Below, in pieces: positions 1,186-16,834 of a stretch of DNA of 20,000 nucleotides. Numbering within the stretch: position 1 is the first letter of the stretch; each line of letters starts with the position of its first letter. The position numbers and the translations under genes are program-made. Origin of the DNA: an uncultured virus (IMG/VR IMGVR_UViG_3300040974_000011). Lineage: Duplodnaviria; Heunggongvirae; Uroviricota; Caudoviricetes. The notes beneath the pieces were generated by a model. That model saw only the letters and a list, made by a program, of their open reading frames with translations, was not told the DNA's origin and ran no database searches. The stretch is from the IMG/VR virus record IMGVR_UViG_3300040974_000011. The stretch is one strand, 5' to 3'.

Positions 1186-1697
1186 CGGCTCTCCTCCTGG
1201 TTGAGGAGGGCAAGCTTCGCGGAGAGCCAGTCCCGACTGGTCAGGTAGCTTGTGGTGACCGTGACGTCGCCATTGTCGTTGAAGACGCATGCAGCGAACG
1301 GCTTGAGCGCCTTCTGGGCTTCCTGGAGTTGGCTGCGGAGGGAGGCGTTCTGCTCGTCTTTGTCTCGCAAAGCCTGCTCGACCACAGCCGTGTAGTCGGC
1401 GGACTCCTTCCGTGCGGCAGCGAGATCGGATCGGAGCTGGGCGAGGATCGGGGCAGCCGCCTCATTCGCGATCTGCGCCCCATCGCGCCGGGCGGCACCG
1501 AGGGCATCCAGCAACAGGGGCTCGGCGATCCTGCCGAACTCCTCGAATGGCCCCTTGAAGCCAAGGCCGTCAGCGAGGACCGCTTCCGTCAGGGAGACGG
1601 CCAGGTTCACGGCTTCATCAGCGAGCGCTGTGCGGAGGGCGTCATGCATCTCCCCGAAGCTGGCGTTGTCGGCGGTCCGGCCGGATGCGGGGGTCAT
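1182..1697 (-). CDS. Hypothetical phage protein with coiled coil
   Basis: MTPASGRTADN... ATGA overlap at 1694-1697; heptad-like segment LAQLRSDLAAARKE...LRSQLQEAQKALKPFA. Confidence 0.75.
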   Translation of the reverse strand: MTPASGRTADNASFGEMHDALRTALADEAVNLAVSLTEAVLADGLGFKGPFEEFGRIAEPLLLDALGAARRDGAQIANEAAAPILAQLRSDLAAARKESADYTAVVEQALRDKDEQNASLRSQLQEAQKALKPFAACVFNDNGDVTVTTSYLTSRDWLSAKLALLNQEESR

Positions 1698-2077
1698 GCG
1701 AGCCTCCAGAGAACGAGCCCGTTGGTCAGGAGGTGCAGCGTGTTGTCGGCCACGATCAGCAGCCAGACCGAGAGCCACGCTGGCACGTCGTCGGTATAGC
1801 CAGTGGCCGTGACCGGGCCGCGGGCGCCGTTCTTCGCCCAGACCACGAAGCGGGCGAGCCGGAAGCGGTCGATGAAGAAGTGCGGAATGAGGATCCCAAG
1901 CCACGCCCACGCAGCAGCAGGCCCAAGGCCAGTGATCGGGATGAAGCAGCACGCATAGACGAGCGCGTGGGTCGCCGCGGCGAGGCTGTTGCGCGTCTTC
2001 TCGGTGGCCATCCAGTGACTTTGTAATAGAAAATCCCCAACGAGATGGGCTAAGATTTGATCCGCAGTCACGAACAT
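1694..2077 (-). CDS. DUF3307-family membrane protein (intact copy with recoded 5' end)
   Basis: MFVTADQILAHLVGDFLLQSHWMATEK...H...HFFIDRFRL...ADNTLHL, matching the H-x-x-x-DF-x-x-Q, H-x-x-x-D and D-x-x-x-H motifs; AGGGG RBS 8 nt before ATG 2077. Confidence 0.85.
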   Translation of the reverse strand: MFVTADQILAHLVGDFLLQSHWMATEKTRNSLAAATHALVYACCFIPITGLGPAAAWAWLGILIPHFFIDRFRLARFVVWAKNGARGPVTATGYTDDVPAWLSVWLLIVADNTLHLLTNGLVLWRLA

Positions 2078-2090
2078 CTGGTCAGCCCCT

Positions 2091-2639
2091 ATGAACGAAT
2101 ACAACAGCTCCGACATCCTTCGATTTTGGGCGAAGGTGTCTAAGCAGGCGACTGATTGCTGCTGGCCGTGGACAGGGACTATGTCCGGTGATGGCTACGG
2201 GCTTTTTGACCGGCGACGCGAAGGAAAGAGGTTCGCCCGGCGGGCGCACCGCGTCGCCTACGAGCTGGCTCACGGTCCGCTGCCTGCGGGTTTGATGGTG
2301 CGCCACAAGTGCGACAACCCGCGCTGCTGCAACCCAAGCCACCTTGAGCCGGGCACGGCTGCCGAGAACTCGCGCGACATGGTGGAGCGCGGTAGGCATT
2401 GGACGCTTCAGCGCCCAACAGAAGTCCCTCGCGGCTCCGAGCACTGGACGGCGCGCAATGGCACGGCGCCACTTCTGCGCGGCCAAGATCATCCTAGCGC
2501 CAAATTGACGGCCGAGATGGTTCGGGAGATCAGGGCAGCGCGAGATGTCCCTCAGCGCGAACTGGCGCGACGCTACGGTGTCTCGCAGGGGGCAATCTGG
2601 CAGGTGCTTCGCGGCAACCACTGGTCCCACGTAAGCTGA
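2091..2639 (+). CDS. HNH (HNH_3-type) homing endonuclease with C-terminal HTH DNA-binding domain
   Basis: CWPWTG...GYG...RAHRVAYELAHG...VRHKCDNPRCCNPSHLEPGTAAENSRDM; C-terminal RGQDHPSAKLT...QRELARRYGVSQGAI; antisense to the operon. Confidence 0.93.
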   Translation: MNEYNSSDILRFWAKVSKQATDCCWPWTGTMSGDGYGLFDRRREGKRFARRAHRVAYELAHGPLPAGLMVRHKCDNPRCCNPSHLEPGTAAENSRDMVERGRHWTLQRPTEVPRGSEHWTARNGTAPLLRGQDHPSAKLTAEMVREIRAARDVPQRELARRYGVSQGAIWQVLRGNHWSHVS

Positions 2640-2702
2640 CTGGAGCAGATAGTCCCCGACGAGGTGCGCCACGATCTGGTCGGCGGTGAAGAAGGCGCTC
2701 AT
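2637..2702 (-). pseudogene. Original 5' end (22 codons) of the DUF3307 gene, cut off by the HNH insertion
   Basis: MSAFFTADQIVAHLVGDYLLQS, ATGA-coupled to the upstream gene; near-identical in protein to 2018-2077. Confidence 0.9.
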
Positions 2703-3832
2703 TCTTCCGCCTCCCCCTGAAGGGTGCGGAGCGCGGTTTCGATGGCGTCGGCTCGGTCGCGCATGCCGGCTTTGCGAGCCGTGTTGTGAACGTGATCGGC
2801 AGTCCCCCGCAGCCACATGACGAGCCCTTCCGGGGTCATGGGCCTAGGAACCTCGCGTAGCACCTCCTTCGCCTCCTCGACCGCCATGGATCCGGTCTTG
2901 AGGGTGGGCGAAGACTGGGGGGAGGGTTCGGGCGTTCTGGCTTCGCCCGTCCGGTCGTGCTCGATGGCCTGATCCTCGCCCATCGTCCGCCAGTCAGGCC
3001 ACGTCCGAGCGAAATTACGATCCTGCTTGGCCTGCATCGCCGGCAGCAGGTCTTCCGGCTTGCCGCCATGGCGCCAGAAGCCGTCCATCGCCAGGATGAT
3101 GACGTCGACCCACTCGGCCAGATCGTGCGGCTCGGCCTCGATCTCGCGAAGCTCCTTGGTGATGTGCTGGACGATGCCCTTGGTCCGCAGGGCCGGGCCG
3201 AACGTCTCCTTCGACCACGCCCATTGCCGGTGAAGGTAGGCGACGAGGTCCGCCCCCTTCTCCTTTCCTGATCCAGAGGCGAGAACGAGCTTCCCGGAGC
3301 GGTGAACTTCGTCGGATTTGATCGCCGATCGCAGATCCATAATGTAGTCCGGCAGCGTGCCGACTGATCCGTCCTTGTCGAACCAGTTTACGACCTCCAG
3401 AGCGGCTTCGCGCAACGTCAGCTCGCCTTCGAAGCGATCGCCGGGGAAGTCTGCTCTCAGCCGTTCCAGTTCGCCACCATCCCCATCCCCGCTTGAGGAG
3501 ACGGGTGCGGCGGCGACATGCTCGGCCCATTGGCTCGCATCGGTGATGACGCGGGCCAGCCGCTCGCCGTCGACGTCGCTTCGGACGAAGTTGGACAGCC
3601 GCGCTCGATCCGTAGCGGTGGAGTAGACGGTCAGGCCGTCTCGGACGGACAGGGCCACCGGCATCCGCGCCATGTACTGCCGGATCCAGGCGTCCCGCTT
3701 CTCGCAGTACTCCGCGTGGGTTTGTGCCCAGCCGGAGATGCCGGTTGCGTGCCCTCGCCCGTAGGCGTCGCGCAGGGCCTTCGCGAGATCACCGTCTCGG
3801 ACGGACGGGGCTGTATTGGTGGGGGTGTGCAT
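2699..3832 (-). CDS. Multi-domain phage protein with DUF550 (dATP/dGTP diphosphohydrolase, MazG-like) domain
   Basis: RQWAWSKETFGP...GIVQHITKELREIEAEPHDLAEWVDVIILAMDGFWRHG...AKQDRNFARTWPDWR is characteristic of DUF550. Confidence 0.85.
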   Translation of the reverse strand: MHTPTNTAPSVRDGDLAKALRDAYGRGHATGISGWAQTHAEYCEKRDAWIRQYMARMPVALSVRDGLTVYSTATDRARLSNFVRSDVDGERLARVITDASQWAEHVAAAPVSSSGDGDGGELERLRADFPGDRFEGELTLREAALEVVNWFDKDGSVGTLPDYIMDLRSAIKSDEVHRSGKLVLASGSGKEKGADLVAYLHRQWAWSKETFGPALRTKGIVQHITKELREIEAEPHDLAEWVDVIILAMDGFWRHGGKPEDLLPAMQAKQDRNFARTWPDWRTMGEDQAIEHDRTGEARTPEPSPQSSPTLKTGSMAVEEAKEVLREVPRPMTPEGLVMWLRGTADHVHNTARKAGMRDRADAIETALRTLQGEAEE

Positions 3833-6153: not shown

Positions 6154-6339
6154 GTGCCAAAAGACAAGCTCGACGACAAGACGTTGGTCCGCTTCAGAGC
6201 GGGCGTGCTCGACCGCATTGACGCGGTGGCGGGCAAGTTCCGGCGCGCAGTTTTCATCCGCGAAGCCGTCGAGACCGCACTGACAAAGGCAGAGAAGCGG
6301 CGGCCGGGCAAAGGGGCTACCGAGGGGGAGCGGCCTTGA
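6154..6339 (+). CDS. Ribbon-helix-helix (CopG/Arc-like) regulator (start uncertain: 6106, 6148 or 6154)
   Basis: KTLVRFRAGVLDRIDAVAGKFRRAVFIREAVETAL beta-helix-helix pattern; its stop overlaps the transposase start (TTGA). Confidence 0.78.
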   Translation: MPKDKLDDKTLVRFRAGVLDRIDAVAGKFRRAVFIREAVETALTKAEKRRPGKGATEGERP

Positions 6340-7628
6340 GCGATCTGCTTCGCTTGAAGCACCTGGAGCACGTCGCCGACTACGAGGAGGGCGACAAGCT
6401 CATCATCAAAGTCCAGAGCCGGAACCCGGTCCCCGAGCGCCAGTGCTGTCTCTTTGCCACCATGATCAAGAATGGCCGGAAGCTCGGGCAGCGGTATCGC
6501 GACGAGCCGATCCGGCGGCAGACCGTCCGGATAGAGATCGACCGACAGCGCTACAAGTGCTCAGCCTGCGGGAAGACCGGCATCTACGAGGCGCTGCCGG
6601 ACATCGATATCCGGCACGACATGACGAAGAAGCTGCTCGTGCGCATCCAGAAGGATGCAGTGGAGTGGCCGTTCAGCCATGCCGCCAAGATCAACGGTGT
6701 CGAGGCGAAGCAGGTCGAGCGGATTTTCCAGGACCATGCCGACAAGGTTCTGAAAGGATACCTGCCGAAGCTCCCGCGCGTTCTCAGCATGGACGAGAAG
6801 GTGATCCGGAAGAAGGCTCGGTTCATCATCGGCGACATTGAGAACAGCGCCATGCTCGACATGCAGATGTCGAGAAGGAAGATCGACCTCAACGAGTATT
6901 TTTCCCTGTTGCCGGGTCGCGACGATGTCGAGGTGATTTGCCAGGACATGTGGTCCACCTACCGCGAACTGAACAAGGGCTTGTTCAAGAACGCGACGGT
7001 CGTCATTGACAAATACCACGTCCAGCGGACGGCCAACAAAGGCGTCGAGGCCGTTCGGCGGCTCTTCCAGCAGGACGTGTCGAAGGCGGAGCGCATCCAC
7101 CTCAAGAACAAGCAGAGCGTCTTCCTGGCCCGCTGGGGCACCGCGAAGCCACGAACCATCAACCAGTTGAACGCCTTGTTCACGTACTTCCCCACGCTCA
7201 AGCGGGTCTACGAGTGTAAAGAGAGCTACTACGAGATTTACGACGCCGCCTCGAAGTACGAGGCAAACGAGATGATGAACCAGTGGCTCGTGGATCTACC
7301 GAAGGACCTACACCGGCCCTTCAAACCGGCGCGGGACGCGCTCAACAACTGGCGCCCGTGGATCTTGAACTACTGGGATCATCCCTATACGAACGCCTAC
7401 GCCGAGAGCCTGAACAACCTGATCGGCCGGATGAACATGCAGGGCGTCGGCTACAGCCCGGAAACCCTTCGCGCCAAGGCGCTCCTCAAGCACGGCGTGT
7501 TCGGCAAGACGCAGTGGGGCGAGTGGGTCCACATCGGGCGCGAAGGCAGCGTCCCGATGGTCTGGGACGTGGGCCTCGGGGTGCCGCTATCAACCTTAGA
7601 AGCCGACTTGGAGGCGGGCACGTTCTGA
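6336..7628 (+). CDS. ISL3-family DDE transposase
   Basis: N-terminal zinc finger (CCLF...RYKCSACG), VLSMDEK, VICQDMW, VVIDKYHV, TNAYAESLNNLI. Confidence 0.96.
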   Translation: MSDLLRLKHLEHVADYEEGDKLIIKVQSRNPVPERQCCLFATMIKNGRKLGQRYRDEPIRRQTVRIEIDRQRYKCSACGKTGIYEALPDIDIRHDMTKKLLVRIQKDAVEWPFSHAAKINGVEAKQVERIFQDHADKVLKGYLPKLPRVLSMDEKVIRKKARFIIGDIENSAMLDMQMSRRKIDLNEYFSLLPGRDDVEVICQDMWSTYRELNKGLFKNATVVIDKYHVQRTANKGVEAVRRLFQQDVSKAERIHLKNKQSVFLARWGTAKPRTINQLNALFTYFPTLKRVYECKESYYEIYDAASKYEANEMMNQWLVDLPKDLHRPFKPARDALNNWRPWILNYWDHPYTNAYAESLNNLIGRMNMQGVGYSPETLRAKALLKHGVFGKTQWGEWVHIGREGSVPMVWDVGLGVPLSTLEADLEAGTF

Positions 7629-10792: not shown

Positions 10793-11274
10793 GCGATCTC
10801 TCCCGAGCGGTCGGCTTCTGAAACACGACGGCGGGCAGTGACGAGGACCGTCAGAGGCACGGCTTCGACGCCGGCCTCGCTGAACATCGTCGCGGCGGCC
10901 TCGAACTCGTCGGCAGGCATGGACGTCTGGCCGGGGCCGTAGACGACGGCACGGATGCCCGCCTGGATCAGCGTGCGGGCACAGGCAGCGCACGGGTGGT
11001 GGGTCACGTAGACTGAACAGCCGTCCGTCCGAATGCCGTGCTGAGCGGCGAAGGCCGAAAGGTTCGCTTCCGCATGGCTGGCAAAGAGGTACTTCGCTGG
11101 CCGCTCGCGGCGCTCGGGCAGGTCGTCCACGCCAGCCGGAGGGCCGTTGTAGGCCGTCAGCAGCACCGTCCGACCATTCGGGGCGACGAGGACCGCGCCG
11201 ACCTGCGTGCTGTCCTTCGACTTCGTGGCGGCGTGCTGAGCGAAGCCCATGAGGTAGGAGGGCCAGTCGGTCAT
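10789..11274 (-). CDS. dCMP deaminase family protein
   Basis: SKDSTQVGAVLV...YNG...HAEAN...HPCAAC zinc-deaminase motifs. Confidence 0.93.
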   Translation of the reverse strand: MTDWPSYLMGFAQHAATKSKDSTQVGAVLVAPNGRTVLLTAYNGPPAGVDDLPERRERPAKYLFASHAEANLSAFAAQHGIRTDGCSVYVTHHPCAACARTLIQAGIRAVVYGPGQTSMPADEFEAAATMFSEAGVEAVPLTVLVTARRRVSEADRSGEIA

Positions 11275-11690
11275 GCCGCCCTCCGCATGAACCGGCCGCG
11301 CTCATCGCGCCTCTGCGGTGGCTTGGGTCGGCCAGCGAGAGTGACGACGCGAGCCGCCTTGTATCCAGCGAGCGTCAGGTCGTAGACGAAGCGCCGAAAC
11401 TCACCCATGTTGTACTTGGGCGTCCCGCGGTATGCCGCGAGGAAGAACATGAACGGCTCAAGCGGGTAGTGCCCCTTGATGCTGTTGCACTCAAAGCAAG
11501 CGATGACGAGGTTTTCGTTTCGGTCGCGAGCCGTGCCGAGTAGCTGCGGCTCAATATGATCCCGCGTCGCCTGGCAGGCTTTGTTCGCCCGAGCCTCCGG
11601 TGAGTGGGCCGGGAAGACGCGGCGGTCGCAGTAGGCGCACACGCCGCTGTGTAGCCTACGCTTCTTGCCTGGGATGACGTGCATATTCAT
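11271..11690 (-). CDS. HNH endonuclease domain protein
   Basis: CAYC...ATRDHIEP...NLVIACFECNSIKG. Confidence 0.88.
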   Translation of the reverse strand: MNMHVIPGKKRRLHSGVCAYCDRRVFPAHSPEARANKACQATRDHIEPQLLGTARDRNENLVIACFECNSIKGHYPLEPFMFFLAAYRGTPKYNMGEFRRFVYDLTLAGYKAARVVTLAGRPKPPQRRDERGRFMRRAA

Positions 11691-12121
11691 GCTGCCACCT
11701 TCCGAGTGCTGGCAGCATCGGCCTGGATCAGCGTGGGATCGCTCCAAACCACACCCTTCTCCGCCCCGAAGACGAAGAGGCTTTCGATCAGGTCCGACAT
11801 CTCGGACTTGGTCAGCTTGCGGGTGCTGATGCCGAGCGGCACGAGGCCGTTGCCGTGAAGGGCAGGGGCCATCCGCACTTCCTTGCCGAGGGCGGCGAGC
11901 GCGATCAGCTTCCAAGCCTCCGGCTCGTAGTGGAGGCCAAAGTGCTCAACCTGCTTGGAGATGTCGCCCAGCATGGCCCAGAGCCGACGATTTTGAATGT
12001 CGGTGCGCCGAGGCGCGGAAAACTCCACGAGCCAGCCGATCGGCGCCTTGCTGATCCAGTGAAGAGCCTTGCGGCGGATCTCTTCGTTGGCGATGCGGAG
12101 GGTGTGACGGTCGCCGCTCAT
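11687..12121 (-). CDS. ninB: NinB/Orf-family recombination protein
   Basis: PRRTDIQNRRLWAMLGDISKQV...EAWK...STRKLTKSEMSDLIE...FGAEKGVVWS. Confidence 0.92.
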   Translation of the reverse strand: MSGDRHTLRIANEEIRRKALHWISKAPIGWLVEFSAPRRTDIQNRRLWAMLGDISKQVEHFGLHYEPEAWKLIALAALGKEVRMAPALHGNGLVPLGISTRKLTKSEMSDLIESLFVFGAEKGVVWSDPTLIQADAASTRKVAA

Positions 12122-12777
12122 TGAGCAGCCCTCCGTTCGCGGATCAGGCCGCCCAGCCGCTCAGCGTCCTCGGCCTCAAGAGCCTTGAACCGCTGCCGGA
12201 ATTCAGGGTCGTCGGTGATGACCTTCACGGCCGCCTCGCCCGAGACCTTCCAGAGCTTGGCGCTCAGTTCGCGTGCGATGCGCTGTGAGGCTGTCGGCTC
12301 AGAAGCCTCACGATCTACTGCAGGCCGCGGCGTAGCGGCTGTGTGGCCGCTTGTGCGCGGTGCAGGGCGTTCGATGTCGCGGCTGGGCATAGCTGCCTCG
12401 CCGTCGTCATCAGTCGGCGGCACGCAGAGGGCTGCCATCAAGGCGTAGCGCAGGCCGTAGGTGACCGCGGAGCCCAGCCCCTGCGGGTCCCGCTTGGCGA
12501 GCGGCACATGCAGCGTGGAGCGCATCCATTCGCCCGAGACGTGGGCGAGCATGGTGGTGATCTCCACACAGCCATCGACCATCCGGCCGGGCGCCTGCGA
12601 GACGATGAGGCCGTTTGCCTGGAGAGCAGGGCGTGCCGTGTCGAGAACCGCCTCCAGGGTGGCGTAGCGGTTCTTGAAGTGCGGGTTCTTGGCATCCTTC
12701 ACGACGCCGGTAAGCACGCCCTGGGCGCCGTGCAGCGCCTTGCAAAGCTCGCCAATGGTGGGGCTGCTCTCAATCAC
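12118..12777 (-). CDS. erf: ERF-family single-strand annealing protein
   Basis: KDAKNPHFKNRYATL...HVSGEW...PQGLGSAVTYGLRYALMAALCV..DDDG; GTG start in a GTGA overlap. Confidence 0.93.
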   Translation of the reverse strand: MIESSPTIGELCKALHGAQGVLTGVVKDAKNPHFKNRYATLEAVLDTARPALQANGLIVSQAPGRMVDGCVEITTMLAHVSGEWMRSTLHVPLAKRDPQGLGSAVTYGLRYALMAALCVPPTDDDGEAAMPSRDIERPAPRTSGHTAATPRPAVDREASEPTASQRIARELSAKLWKVSGEAAVKVITDDPEFRQRFKALEAEDAERLGGLIRERRAAQ

Positions 12778-13004
12778 GATGCGGCGTCCTCTGCTGTGAC
12801 GCGGCGCGGCTCGAACTCCTGGCACTTGCCGTCGAAGTTCACGCGCTCGCAGAGCTGGTACGGAGGATCCGGCGAGTACTTGGGATGCACGAAGGCGTAG
12901 CCGGCTCGGGTCGGCGCCTTCATGCAGCGGTATCGCCAGGGCTTGGTTTCGACGCGCGAGGCGGGGTGAACCCATTCGCAGCTATCGCAGAACACGGGGG
13001 TCAC
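12774..13004 (-). CDS. Small Cys-containing hypothetical phage protein
   Basis: FCDSC...YRCMKAP...CERVNFDGKCQEFEP; coupled overlaps. Confidence 0.75.
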   Translation of the reverse strand: MTPVFCDSCEWVHPASRVETKPWRYRCMKAPTRAGYAFVHPKYSPDPPYQLCERVNFDGKCQEFEPRRVTAEDAAS

Positions 13005-15842: not shown

Positions 15843-16470
15843 AGTTAGATATCCGCTTCCACTGCTTCGCGGGGACGATGGACATGACTTCGGCGACCCG
15901 CTTCACGTCGACCTCGTCCTGATCCGGGGCGTTGTGGCTGCCGATAGTGAAGGACCCGTCACGGGCGTGTTTCTTGAGGGTTTTTAGGAGATAGGTGCCG
16001 TCTCCGTCTTCTAGAACAACCTCTTGCCCAATCAGGGCTTCCGGCTCGCCATCGTACCATTTGGCGATGACGACTTCGCCGTCCTTGATCCGCGGGAACT
16101 GCGACTGCCCACGAGCCTCAAGGGCGAAGCAGCCTTCGGGAAGCGCGTAGGGAAGTTCGATTTCACCGAGCGCCAATTCGCCCTCCTCGACCCACCGGAT
16201 GGCCTCACCCAAGCCAACCGTTCCGACCACGTCAACAACCGTAGATCGGTTCGCGGTTCCTTCCCCAGTTAAAAGCCAGCTCGCCGACACGCGGAATTTT
16301 CGGGCGTATTTGAACGCCTCCTCCTCGCTGTAATCGCGAGCGCCCGGCTCCCCAGCGCGTTCGTGGGCGTTGTAGGTCGATACTGCCACGTCCAGCGCGA
16401 ATGCTGCGGCGCGGCCGGAACGGTATCGGCGCTCTCGCGCCCACCGCAATCTCTCACCCTTCGTCTTCAT
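15841..16470 (-). CDS. cI: CI-like repressor (XRE HTH + S24 peptidase)
   Basis: GERLRWARE...AAAFALDVAVSTYNAHE...VSASWLLTGEG; catalytic Ser (GQSQFP) and Lys (LLKTL). Confidence 0.93.
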   Translation of the reverse strand: MKTKGERLRWARERRYRSGRAAAFALDVAVSTYNAHERAGEPGARDYSEEEAFKYARKFRVSASWLLTGEGTANRSTVVDVVGTVGLGEAIRWVEEGELALGEIELPYALPEGCFALEARGQSQFPRIKDGEVVIAKWYDGEPEALIGQEVVLEDGDGTYLLKTLKKHARDGSFTIGSHNAPDQDEVDVKRVAEVMSIVPAKQWKRISN

Positions 16471-16543
16471 AACGCGAAAAGTAGCAACTTGGCTGCTACG
16501 AAGGGGGTTGATCGGAGTTGCTACATATCGTAGACACTCTGTC
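16471..16543. promoter_or_regulatory. OR region: pR, pRM-like promoter and operator
   Basis: TTGATC(16508-16513)-N17-TAGACA(16531-16536); operator ctacatatcgtag 16521-16533; degenerate or half sites at 16472-16485 and 16495-16500; minus-strand TACTTT 16483-16478. Confidence 0.82.
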
Positions 16544-16834
16544 ATGAGCGCGGTTCAAGCCATCATCGCGAAGTTTGAGACGCCAGCGAAGTTCGGGCGG
16601 GCGATCAATTTGAAGGTCGTCAACCACGCGCACCAGATGTGGGACCGGATGTCGATCCCCGCGCTGCGGTGGCCAGACGTCGTCGAGGCCGCTTCTGAGC
16701 TAGGCATCAAAGGCGTCACAATCGAAGCTCTCATGGCCGCCCACGTGGCCGACGAGCCCCTTCGCCGAGCAAAACTTCAGCAGACCCGCGCCCGTCAGAA
16801 GTCTTCAAGTCAGCCGGAGGCTCGTGCGTCATGA
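16544..16834 (+). CDS. cro: Cro-like protein
   Basis: Divergent from cI; IIAKFETPAKFGRAI...AHQMWDRMSIPALRWPDVVEAA...GVTIEAL. Confidence 0.85.
   Translation: MSAVQAIIAKFETPAKFGRAINLKVVNHAHQMWDRMSIPALRWPDVVEAASELGIKGVTIEALMAAHVADEPLRRAKLQQTRARQKSSSQPEARAS

What the first reader, a model, noticed from the sequence alone, without database searches (positions are those of the whole stretch)
2018..2702. Intron-less HNH endonuclease that repairs the gene it invades with a synonymously recoded 5' end
Seen: the DUF3307 N-terminus occurs twice, on either side of an antisense HNH gene. Original (2702-2637): ...acc gcc gac cag atc gtg gcg cac ctc gtc ggg gac tat ctg ctc cag tca (TADQIVAHLVGDYLLQS). Replacement (2077-2018): ...act gcg gat caa atc tta gcc cat ctc gtt ggg gat ttt cta tta caa agt (TADQILAHLVGDFLLQS). 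Of 17 aligned codons 12 differ synonymously, 2 conservatively, and only 3 are identical. The replacement is AT-rich, unlike the rest of the gene, and has its own RBS and ATG. The HNH stop TGA (2637-2639) is the complement of the target Ser codon. Established: homing endonucleases target conserved coding motifs and usually rely on introns or inteins to stay harmless. Inference: this ~620-bp cassette uses recode-and-restart instead, which destroys its own cut site and prevents deletion between the duplicates.
Basis: partly seen in the sequence, partly recalled or inferred. Interest (0 to 1): 0.85.

Follow-up and report, generated by a model that had tools for sequence, protein, structure and literature searches.

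The report
Homing nuclease carrying spare gene start
A selfish DNA-cutting-enzyme gene sits inside the first codons of a small prophage membrane-protein gene, and the gene stays whole because a foreign, differently spelled copy of those codons restarts it, a layout known from fungal mitochondria but which I did not find described for phages.

Summary
On the minus strand, a DUF550 gene ends at 2699. The native first 22 codons of a DUF3307 gene (2702-2637) are stranded there. An intact HNH_3+HTH endonuclease gene follows on the plus strand (2091-2639). The live DUF3307 gene restarts at ATG 2077 with 20 codons whose third-position GC content (GC3) is 0.40, against 0.88 for the rest.

New evidence:
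- The nearest relative of the live gene (P0121, body 94/107 identical) has the stranded-type start joined directly to the body. That start matches the stranded copy 17/17 and the live copy 15/17.
- The two other loci with an HNH of this clade (L052, L056; 57-61% identity) also have it abutting a DUF3307 start.
- All three alleles show the same GC3 collapse, ending at the same codon plus or minus one. They rank 1-3 of 85 alleles.
- None of 92 loci found with DUF3307 queries carries the HNH.
- L052 has a short stranded relic. L031, a distant relative, shows the 3'-end version.

Best reading (0.7): a free-standing homing endonuclease that cuts near the Q-S-H codons and always co-transfers a wobble-recoded, probably cleavage-immune 5' segment. 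Cleavage and immunity are untested.

This is a new variant of a known kind (intronless homing; fungal mORF gene hybrids). This scan has reported the same layout before on other DNA.

The parts
2699..3832 (-). Upstream gene (377 aa) with a dATP/dGTP pyrophosphohydrolase (DUF550) domain. Its stop overlaps the ATG of the stranded DUF3307 start (ATGA).
   Evidence: PF04447, 81.5 bits
2637..2702 (-). Stranded native 5' end of DUF3307 (22 codons, GC3 0.95). Identical 17/17 to the start of the nearest HNH-free relative, P0121.
2091..2639 (+). Free-standing HNH_3 endonuclease gene with a C-terminal helix-turn-helix (182 aa), antisense to the operon. Its stop codon is the complement of the last codon of the stranded start.
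2078..2090 (.). 13-nt spacer between the two divergent start codons. On the minus strand it holds AGGGG (2090-2086, Shine-Dalgarno-like for ATG 2077) and TGA (2084-2082), which ends the read-through frame of the stranded start.
2018..2077 (-). Foreign replacement 5' end of DUF3307: ATG plus 19 codons, GC3 0.40. It is 46/60 nt identical to the HNH-linked 5' end of L052, although the gene bodies are only 173/300 identical.
1694..2017 (-). Native body of DUF3307 (107 codons plus stop, GC3 0.88). 94/107 residues identical to P0121.

Best explanation
This is a free-standing (intron-less, intein-less) HNH_3 homing endonuclease gene that lives at the 5' end of phage DUF3307 genes. It travels as a cassette with about 20 codons of DUF3307 coding sequence.

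Shown:
- The nuclease ORF is intact and I-HmuI-like.
- It lies inside the first codons of the gene.
- The native start is stranded upstream.
- The live gene is a chimera of a foreign 20-codon start and a native body.
- In all three known loci of this HNH clade, the segment between the HNH and one fixed codon position (just after L-Q-S) has A/T-rich third positions.

Inferred:
- The enzyme nicks or cuts HNH-free alleles in or next to the conserved GC-rich spelling of the H-x-V-G-D-Y-L-L-Q-S | H-W codons.
- Repair copies everything between the break and the HNH gene. That segment therefore always hitch-hikes with the nuclease and shares its history, while the gene body beyond the break is the recipient's own. 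This would explain the sharp compositional boundary.
- The segment differs from the common target spelling at nearly every free position, so cassette-bearing alleles are probably not cut.
- In this prophage the side of the break away from the gene body had no homology with the donor, because DUF3307 neighbours differ from phage to phage. It was therefore joined without homology. This left the recipient's own 22 codons stranded and the gene restarted from the imported ATG.
For: - Nuclease identity: Pfam HNH_3 at 60.1 bits and PHROG HNH families down to E 2e-35. Histidine, aspartate and asparagine columns of the HNH region are invariant among 9 relatives. In the model (pLDDT 84), the best solved match is I-HmuI 1u3e (E 1.6e-3, 75 columns, rmsd 2.0).
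- Empty allele: L007, L008 and L009 and P0121 have the start joined directly to HWMATEK. P0121's body is 94/107 identical to the live gene. Its start matches the stranded copy 17/17 and the live copy 15/17. Of the 120 nearest relatives, 117 have GDY and none has the live copy's GDF.
- Target association: the only two other loci with an HNH of 57-61% identity (L052, L056) have it directly abutting a DUF3307 start. About 40 loci with more distant HNH relatives (47% identity or less over the full length) have no DUF3307 nearby.
- Recoding travels with the HNH: the GC3 drop is 0.55 (window), 0.53 (L052) and 0.66 (L056). These rank 1-3 of 85 measurable alleles, and the next is 0.34. Change points fall after LLQS, LQSD and LQSD, the same alignment column plus or minus one codon. 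In the 42 nt before the junction, mismatches to the consensus of 54 GC-rich HNH-free alleles are 18, 19 and 23, against a mean of 10.2 and a maximum of 18. The 30 nt after the junction are unexceptional.
- In L052 and L056 the HNH gene itself has low GC3 (0.30-0.65), so the HNH plus the 5' segment form one compositional island.
- Sporadic distribution: 0 of 92 loci found with DUF3307 queries carry this HNH or a duplicated start.
- Variable neighbours: 85 upstream ORFs belong to many unrelated families, and no locus shares the window's flanking genes.
- Published basis, all read as passages or sections: one-sided homing with illegitimate joining and intronless homing (PMC2988022), and targeting of conserved codons (PMC3984707).
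Against: - No cleavage, nicking or homing was observed, and the cut site is inferred only from boundaries.
- The window's HNH has much higher GC3 (0.60-0.85) than the 20-codon segment (0.40). Simple shared ancestry from a low-GC donor does not explain both.
- The HNH is inverted here relative to L052 and L056, and the model does not explain that.
- The left junction falls exactly at the HNH stop codon. That is an odd coincidence for a random end-joining.
- Only three independent HNH-linked loci exist, and L056 is cut off by its contig end.
- No HNH-free copy of this same prophage was found in 4 sequencing runs or in 401+401 genomes.
- No promoter-like site for the HNH was found.
Confidence: 0.7

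Rival explanations
1. Self-contained 'recode-and-restart' element. The stranded native start is not a scar but a working part. Together with the gene body it gives the cassette target-gene homology on both sides. The element can then home into any DUF3307 gene regardless of neighbours, and each recipient's own start becomes the new stranded copy.
For: - The stranded copy is pristine: start codon, ATGA overlap with the upstream gene, and 17/17 match to P0121.
- The left junction is exactly at the HNH stop.
- DUF3307 neighbours are too variable to supply flanking homology.
- L052 also has a relic (HHLGDYVL) 21 nt before its HNH. This is one of only 2 non-genic hits of that pattern in 685 kb.
- L031 shows the mirror-image layout at a gene's 3' end, with the relic starting inside the HNH stop codon.
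- This scan has reported at least 8 similar layouts in other phage genes (unchecked notes).
Against: - The L052 relic is only 8 codons, has A/T-rich third positions and lacks a start, so it looks like decay and not a maintained arm.
- A 66-nt arm is short for homologous repair.
- The variant contig L049 has lost part of the stranded copy.
- Only one complete example exists for this HNH clade.
Confidence: 0.17
2. The A/T-rich start is selected for expression, not immunity. A gene that has lost translational coupling to its upstream neighbour needs an unstructured, A/T-rich initiation region. In the window the same stretch could also carry the HNH promoter. Under this view the HNH is a passive insertion that need not target DUF3307.
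For: - A/T enrichment near starts is a general trend (established knowledge, recalled).
- In the window the segment lies immediately upstream of the divergent HNH start.
- HNH-free alleles show a mild average drop, many in the range 0.1-0.3.
Against: - No promoter-like site was found in 1600-2900.
- In L052 and L056 the segment lies downstream of the HNH, so it cannot be its promoter.
- The boundary is a step at one codon in three loci, not a gradient, and it coincides with the end of the stranded copy.
- The 82 HNH-free alleles never exceed a drop of 0.34.
- The HNH-DUF3307 association is 3 of 3 for the clade.
Confidence: 0.08
3. Chance mosaic. A divergent DUF3307 allele from a low-GC phage recombined in together with an unrelated HNH, with no site-specific process behind it.
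For: Phage genomes are mosaics. The synonymous divergence itself is ordinary: the stranded copy matches L008 at 39/51 nt and the live copy at 33/51 nt.
Against: - Three independent loci have the same HNH clade, the same target gene end and the same boundary codon. The chance that they rank 1-3 of 85 is about 1 in 99,000.
- The HNH is GC-rich in the window, so the cassette is not simply a block of low-GC DNA.
Confidence: 0.05

Closest known systems
Mobile endonuclease ORFs (mORFs) forming 'gene hybrids' in fungal mitochondria: Glomus sp. atp6, atp9, cox2 and nad3. Allomyces macrogynus atp6 is included as cited there (PMC3630166, passages read).
   Same: An endonuclease ORF sits inside a gene end. 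A foreign copy of that end, differing mostly at synonymous sites, is in phase with the gene core. The native end is stranded beside the ORF and matches close relatives. The layout is attributed to horizontal transfer driven by the endonuclease.
   Different: The fungal cases involve the 3' end, LAGLIDADG or GIY-YIG enzymes, mitochondrial genomes and an ORF often in phase with the gene. Here it is the 5' end with a new start codon, an HNH_3 enzyme on the opposite strand, and a bacterial prophage.
Intronless homing by free-standing endonucleases of T-even phages: SegA-G and the HNH-type MobA/MobE (PMC2988022, section 7 and passages read).
   Same: A free-standing endonuclease gene lies next to a conserved target gene. 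Flanking sequence is co-converted, HNH members nick, and one-sided events with illegitimate joining are documented.
   Different: The T4 genes sit between genes, and their cleavage sites are stated to lie hundreds to thousands of bp away. Here the inferred cut site is about 60 bp from the HNH, the insertion lies inside the coding sequence, and a duplicated gene start remains.
I-HmuI, the intron-encoded HNH homing (nicking) endonuclease of Bacillus phage SPO1 (PDB 1u3e).
   Same: It is the best structural match to the model's nuclease domain. The modular build is the same: an HNH domain plus a C-terminal helix-turn-helix DNA-binding part.
   Different: I-HmuI is intron-encoded. Identity over the 75 aligned columns is 24%. 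No sequence-level hit was found in the PDB.
Temperate elements that integrate inside a gene and bring a spare, synonymously diverged gene end (phage 21 and e14 in E. coli icd). Recalled from memory, not checked in any call.
   Same: The invaded gene stays whole because the element supplies a differently spelled copy of the displaced end, which leaves a stranded duplicate.
   Different: That mechanism is site-specific recombination by an integrase at the 3' end. It is not break repair driven by a homing endonuclease.

Membership tests
HNH_3 / I-HmuI-like HNH homing endonucleases | HNH_3 domain above the curated threshold | tested here: met
   PF13392 at 60.1 bits against a cutoff of 24.8, residues 50-95. 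PHROG HNH endonuclease families down to E 2.1e-35.
HNH_3 / I-HmuI-like HNH homing endonucleases | Conserved metal-finger (beta-beta-alpha) residues and fold | tested here: met
   H53, H72, D75, H84 and N93 are invariant in 9 relatives. Which of these are catalytic is my inference. The model has pLDDT 84. The top PDB match is I-HmuI 1u3e (E 1.6e-3, rmsd 2.0 over 75 columns), followed by I-PpoI.
HNH_3 / I-HmuI-like HNH homing endonucleases | Site-specific nicking or cleavage of the endonuclease-free allele | not testable with these tools
   Needs purified protein and substrates.
HNH_3 / I-HmuI-like HNH homing endonucleases | Sporadic presence among otherwise homologous sites | tested here: met
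   0 of 92 DUF3307 loci found with DUF3307 queries carry it. It is present at the same gene end in 3 of 3 clade loci found with HNH queries.
Free-standing endonuclease / intronless homing (Seg, Mob) | Not embedded in an intron or intein | tested here: met
   No Rfam intron family at E up to 1 in 1400-3400. The HNH is on the opposite strand to the invaded gene, so it cannot be an intein.
Free-standing endonuclease / intronless homing (Seg, Mob) | Gene located between conserved genes, with the cleavage site at a distance in a neighbouring gene | tested here: not met
   In the window the insertion is inside the coding sequence after codon 21-22, and the inferred break is about 60 bp from the HNH start. 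The cleavage site itself is not measured.
Free-standing endonuclease / intronless homing (Seg, Mob) | Co-conversion of flanking target-gene sequence with the endonuclease gene | tested here: met
   The allele is chimeric. Its body is 94/107 identical to P0121, but its first 20 codons are foreign and nearest in spelling to L052's HNH-linked start, at 46/60. The same boundary is seen in 3 loci.
Fungal mitochondrial mORF gene hybrids | Endonuclease ORF in a gene end, plus a foreign in-phase duplicate of that end, plus a stranded native end that matches relatives | tested here: met
   compared with the description in PMC3630166 (passages read).
Fungal mitochondrial mORF gene hybrids | LAGLIDADG or GIY-YIG ORF, 3' end of a mitochondrial gene | tested here: not met
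   HNH_3 enzyme, 5' end, bacterial prophage: integrase, excisionase-like HTH, ERF, NinB and an S24 repressor are all in the window.
Group I/II intron- or intein-borne endonuclease | Ribozyme structure or in-frame protein-splicing domain around the endonuclease | tested here: not met
   No intron family match, and the orientation is antisense. RNA evidence is lacking: 0 reads in the one raw RNA run read.

The most novel reading that the evidence does not exclude
A third way, beside introns and inteins, for a homing endonuclease to live harmlessly inside a coding sequence: a 'restart/spare-end cassette'. The nuclease carries a wobble-recoded copy of the gene end it displaces. The recoding is its immunity. 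The recipient's own displaced end stays behind and can serve as a homology arm, so the element can hop between phages that share nothing but the target gene. The DUF3307 clade would be a tractable model, with a predicted cut site at the Q-S-H codons, two orientations, and a C-terminal counterpart (L031) among its relatives.
Probability: 0.3. Interest if true: 0.75.

Novelty: new variant of a known kind. Interest (0 to 1): 0.6.

Why it matters
It gives a concrete, testable case of how selfish nucleases invade protein-coding genes of phages without introns or inteins.

- The sharp GC3 step predicts the cut site to within a few bases.
- The natural recoded allele is a ready-made negative control.
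- Natural HNH-free alleles are ready-made substrates.
- It explains a class of annotation oddities: tiny duplicated gene ends, long antisense ORFs, and chimeric gene starts next to HNH genes.
- Synonymous 'recoding' next to nuclease genes can mark the boundaries of gene flow between phages.
- The 20-codon segment is also a natural example of how many silent changes may be needed to escape a protein-guided nuclease.

Tried and rejected
- Own-genome searches were impossible because no genome is held.
- blastn of 1500-3300 against 50,697 phage records matched only the DUF550 part and short HNH pieces. No related cassette was found.
- The HNH protein against viral contigs gave 6 loci at 54% identity or less, none with DUF3307 nearby.
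- A degenerate DNA pattern for the recoded segment found 0 matches in viral contigs.
- The Methylobacterium-genus search gave 27 of 146 genomes with HNH relatives. All were 52% identity or less, and none of those given loci was beside DUF3307.
- The order-level search for the DUF550 neighbour gave 4 of 401 genomes, none syntenic, so no empty copy of this prophage was found.
- The class-level search with the HNH alignment gave 1 of 401 genomes (38% identity), not beside DUF3307.
- Sequencing runs: 4 runs were laid and showed no joint that skips the cassette. The one raw RNA run gave 0 reads. One 201-nt contig of a metatranscriptome covers 1739-1939 and may be DNA. So there is no evidence on expression, splicing or an empty allele.
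- The promoter/terminator scan of 1600-2900 found 0 sites.
- The open antisense frame through the HNH might suggest translational coupling. Codon usage alone gives P about 0.15, and 3 of 15 control windows were open, so this was rejected as evidence.
- The 'MFV...' start as a shared derived mark of the cassette was rejected. FVTADQ or FVSADQ starts also occur in the HNH-free loci L080, L108, L110 and L111, and in P0154.
- Decayed HNH relics upstream of the moderately dropped alleles (L058, L083, L099, L110, L084): nothing convincing at E up to 1.
- PDB sequence searches gave no nuclease hit: 0 hits, and only weak HTH hits plus I-PpoI at E 0.25.
- The tblastx flank scan is noisy in GC-rich DNA. 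Of 37 loci tested, only the window (41.4 bits) and L031 (32.2 bits) gave clear same-strand duplicates. It missed the 8-codon L052 relic, which came from the motif scan.
- Literature: searches (PMC open-access and bioRxiv only) returned no paper whose listing, or the passages I read, describes a phage homing endonuclease with a duplicated, recoded target-gene end. Passages of PMC12724721, PMC8351571 and PMC10448857 were read and do not mention it. Subscription journals are not covered.
Full report
**1. What is there**

Read on the minus strand, the region is part of the leftward early operon of a temperate prophage. The window also holds:
- a tyrosine integrase (1-870);
- an excisionase-like HTH_17 protein;
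- ERF and NinB recombination genes;
- an S24 repressor (15844-16545).

A 377-aa gene with a DUF550 / dATP-dGTP pyrophosphohydrolase domain ends at 2699. Its stop overlaps an ATG at 2702 (ATGA). That ATG opens 22 codons, MSAFFTADQIVAHLVGDYLLQS, ending with TCA at 2639-2637.

On the plus strand, TGA at 2637-2639 is the stop of a 182-aa gene (2091-2639). Its identity rests on:
- Pfam HNH_3 at 60.1 bits against a cutoff of 24.8, plus weak C-terminal HTH matches;
- PHROG HNH endonuclease families down to E 2e-35.

The database holds this protein only from Met31 (P0001, 152 aa). However, relatives align from residue 5-11 onwards and conserve the FW.KV...CW.W.G stretch, so 2091 is the likely start.

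Thirteen bases separate its ATG from the divergent ATG at 2077. That ATG opens the live DUF3307 gene (2077-1694, 127 aa; PF11750 at 37.9 bits). AGGGG lies 8 nt before this ATG.

**2.

- The 17 aligned codons share 33/51 bases and 15/17 residues: 12 synonymous changes, 2 conservative changes and 3 identical codons.
- GC3 is 0.95 in the stranded copy, 0.40 in the first 20 live codons and 0.88 afterwards.
- The maximum-likelihood change point is exactly after codon 20, at LLQS|HW. This is the same residue at which the stranded copy ends.
- A GC dip to 0.43-0.52 spans 2010-2160.

**3. Which copy is native**

HNH-free alleles from two Methylobacterium genomes and an alphaproteobacterial MAG (L008, L007, L009) read MF(T/A)ADQ...LLQ(S/L)HWMATEK without interruption. 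They have GC3 of 0.80-0.90 in the first 20 codons.

The decisive comparison is P0121, the nearest relative among 1022 hits:
- its body is 94/107 identical to the live gene;
- its start matches the stranded copy 17/17 and the live copy only 15/17;
- of the 120 nearest relatives, 117 have G-D-Y and none has the live copy's G-D-F.

So the stranded 22 codons are the native start, and the live gene is a chimera. It is seen at protein level only, because I could not fetch P0121's DNA.

**4. Does the recoded start belong to the HNH?**

Close relatives of the HNH are rare. The best are 60% identical. A metagenome scan with an alignment of the nine closest relatives returned three contigs identical to the window (L049-L051) and two independent loci, L052 and L056. 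Pairwise HNH identities among the window, L052 and L056 are 57-61%.

In both independent loci the HNH lies directly upstream of a DUF3307 gene. It is co-oriented there, and its last codons overlap the DUF3307 start.

The DUF3307 bodies are only 47-48% identical to the window's, so these are different phages. Yet both genes show the same anomaly:

| Locus | GC3 before boundary | GC3 after boundary | Change point |
|---|---|---|---|
| L052 | 0.33 | 0.82 | after LQSD |
| L056 | 0.33 | 0.98 | after LQSD |

Both change points fall one codon from the window's position in the alignment.

I measured the drop in 85 alleles, including several near-identical pairs. The stranded copy and one truncated allele were dropped from this count.
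- The three HNH-linked alleles rank 1-3 (0.66, 0.55, 0.53).
- The best HNH-free allele reaches 0.34.
- By chance, that ranking has probability 1/C(85,3), about 1e-5.

Against the consensus of 54 GC-rich HNH-free alleles:
- in the 42 nt before the boundary, the three alleles differ at 18, 19 and 23 positions (empties: mean 10.2, maximum 18, reached by 2 of 54);
- in the 30 nt after the boundary, they are unexceptional at 8, 12 and 4 (mean 6.4).

All three replace the common GTC GGC GAC TAC by spellings with T in the third positions.

The window's 20 codons are closer in spelling to L052's (46/60) than the two bodies are to each other (173/300). With 60 nt this is supportive, not decisive.

In L052 and L056 the HNH itself has low GC3 (0.30-0.65), against 0.71-0.73 in L052's flanking genes. 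There, the HNH plus the 5' segment form one compositional island. In the window the HNH is GC-richer (0.60-0.85). I cannot explain that difference.

**5. Distribution**

- None of the 92 loci found with DUF3307 queries (12 genomic, 80 viral) has this HNH or a second copy of the start motif.
- One locus, L084, has an unrelated PF01844 HNH upstream.
- About 40 loci with more distant HNH_3 relatives have no DUF3307 nearby.

So the association is clade-specific and the element is sporadic, as expected for a homing endonuclease gene.

**6. More scars**

L052 carries HHLGDYVL followed by a stop, 21 nt before its HNH start. The pattern H..GDY.L occurs 70 times in the six frames of 685,273 bases. Of these, 68 are true gene starts, one is this relic, and one lies elsewhere in L054. 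The relic has A/T-rich third positions and no start codon, so it looks old or derived from an earlier cassette.

I ran a left-flank against right-flank tblastx over 37 HNH loci. Besides the window, one clear case came up, L031:
- it comes from a genome returned by the Methylobacterium-genus search, and its HNH is about 32% identical;
- the live gene, which looks like a phage endonuclease I by my reading of its YLPDF...IEVKG motif (not tested), ends ...DWCQKNGIAWSKA;
- the HNH follows;
- a second copy, DWCEKNGIEWRQA plus a stop, begins inside the HNH stop codon.

This is the 3'-end version of the layout, found in a relative of this enzyme.

**7. Mechanism**

Shown:
- the anatomy;
- the chimeric allele;
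- the clade-target association;
- the common boundary.

Established in the literature:
- Free-standing endonucleases home without introns, co-convert flanking DNA, and in the HNH (Mob) class nick DNA. One-sided events are repaired illegitimately at microhomologies (PMC2988022, section 7 and passages).
- Homing sites usually lie in codons for conserved residues. Occupied alleles are immune because the site is disrupted (PMC3984707, passages).

Inferred:
- The enzyme breaks HNH-free alleles at or next to the Q-S-H codons.
- Everything between the break and the HNH must be copied in each transfer. The 20 codons are therefore a permanent passenger, while the body beyond the break is the recipient's. 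This explains the step.
- Because GC-rich phages spell this motif with G/C in third positions, a maximally different spelling is A/T-rich. This fits selection for immunity.
- DUF3307 neighbours differ widely: lysozymes, a portal, a terminase, a ligase and many unknowns in 85 upstream ORFs. None shares the window's flanks.
- The far side of the break would therefore often lack homology and be joined without it, stranding the recipient's start.

The alternative is that the stranded start is a maintained homology arm. That would explain its pristine state and the junction falling exactly at the HNH stop. It rests on one complete example.

**8. What argues against, or is missing**

- There is no activity data.
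- The HNH orientation differs between loci.
- No promoter-like site was found.
- No empty copy of this prophage and no RNA evidence were found.
- L049, otherwise 100% identical, lacks 2661-2784. This removes 14 codons of the stranded start and the last 28 codons of the DUF550 gene, with no microhomology at the junction. Contigs of run X13 break at 2655 and 2781. This may be a real population variant or an assembly artefact. If real, the stranded copy is dispensable.

**9. Comparison with the known**

The layout matches the 'gene hybrids' made by mobile endonuclease ORFs in fungal mitochondria. There, a foreign, mostly synonymously different C-terminus is in phase with the core, and the native C-terminus is stranded behind the ORF (PMC3630166, passages read; Allomyces atp6 as cited there). 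It differs in four ways: the gene end involved (5', needing a new start), the enzyme family, the strand and the host.

It works like intronless homing in T-even phages. It fails that group's positional feature, which is an intergenic location with a distant cleavage site.

It is not an intron or an intein (antisense orientation).

I found no paper describing this for phages in six searches of the open-access library. Subscription journals were not searched.

Earlier notes of this scan report at least eight similar layouts in other phage genes and pointed me to the fungal literature, which I then read. They are unchecked AI notes and not independent support.

**10. Verdict**

This is a real feature, correctly observed. 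The functional claims remain to be tested. It is a new variant of a known kind, with interest 0.6.

Noticed in passing
window 2661-2784 (compare L049 1468/1469): Metagenome contig L049 is 100% identical to the window on both sides but lacks these 124 bp. The missing stretch covers the first 14 codons of the stranded start and the last 28 codons of the DUF550 gene. There is no microhomology at the junction. Contigs of run X13 break at 2655 and 2781.
   Followed up: partly
window 2082-2702, minus strand: The stranded start stays open through the antisense of the whole HNH gene (206 codons) and stops 4 nt before the new ATG. This could couple translation, but codon usage alone gives P about 0.15.
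   Followed up: yes
window 2145 (run X14): One Logan contig of run X14 follows the window from 1848 to 2145 and then continues with 28 unlike letters. The next contig starts at 2162 with about twice the depth. This could be a second context of the HNH in that sample or an assembly artefact.
   Followed up: no
window 6336-7628, plus strand: An ISL3-family transposase gene (PF01610, E 1.7e-44) is inserted in the prophage early region, on the opposite strand to its neighbours.
   Followed up: no
window 11274-11915, minus strand: A second, unrelated HNH protein (PF01844, E 6.7e-6) lies next to NinB (11690-12121) and ERF (12121-12975). The listed ORFs overlap by about 230 nt, so its start is probably further downstream.
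   Followed up: no
L031 1288-1900, minus strand: In a genome returned by the Methylobacterium-genus search, an HNH_3 relative (1327-1797) sits behind a gene ending ...DWCQKNGIAWSKA. A second copy of that ending (DWCEKNGIEWRQA plus a stop) starts inside the HNH stop codon. This is the 3'-end version of the same layout.
   Followed up: partly
L052 556-579, plus strand: An 8-codon relic of a DUF3307 start (HHLGDYVL, then VIC and a stop) lies 21 nt before the HNH start. It has A/T-rich third positions, unlike the window's GC-rich stranded copy.
   Followed up: yes
L084 1881-2498: A different HNH family (PF01844, E 6.7e-12) ends right at the start of a DUF3307 gene whose first codons show a moderate GC3 drop (0.28 against 0.53). 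This may be another nuclease using the same gene end.
   Followed up: no
L063, L064, L075 (upstream of DUF3307): In several viral contigs DUF3307 directly follows a cell-wall hydrolase gene (glucosaminidase, phage lysozyme, amidase). This hints at a role in the lysis module for this small membrane protein.
   Followed up: no
window 2091-2180: The public protein for this HNH (P0001, 152 aa) starts at Met31. Conservation of residues 5-30 in relatives indicates the gene is annotated too short. No 100%-identical entry for the live DUF3307 protein appeared among the hits, so it may not have been called as a gene.
   Followed up: partly
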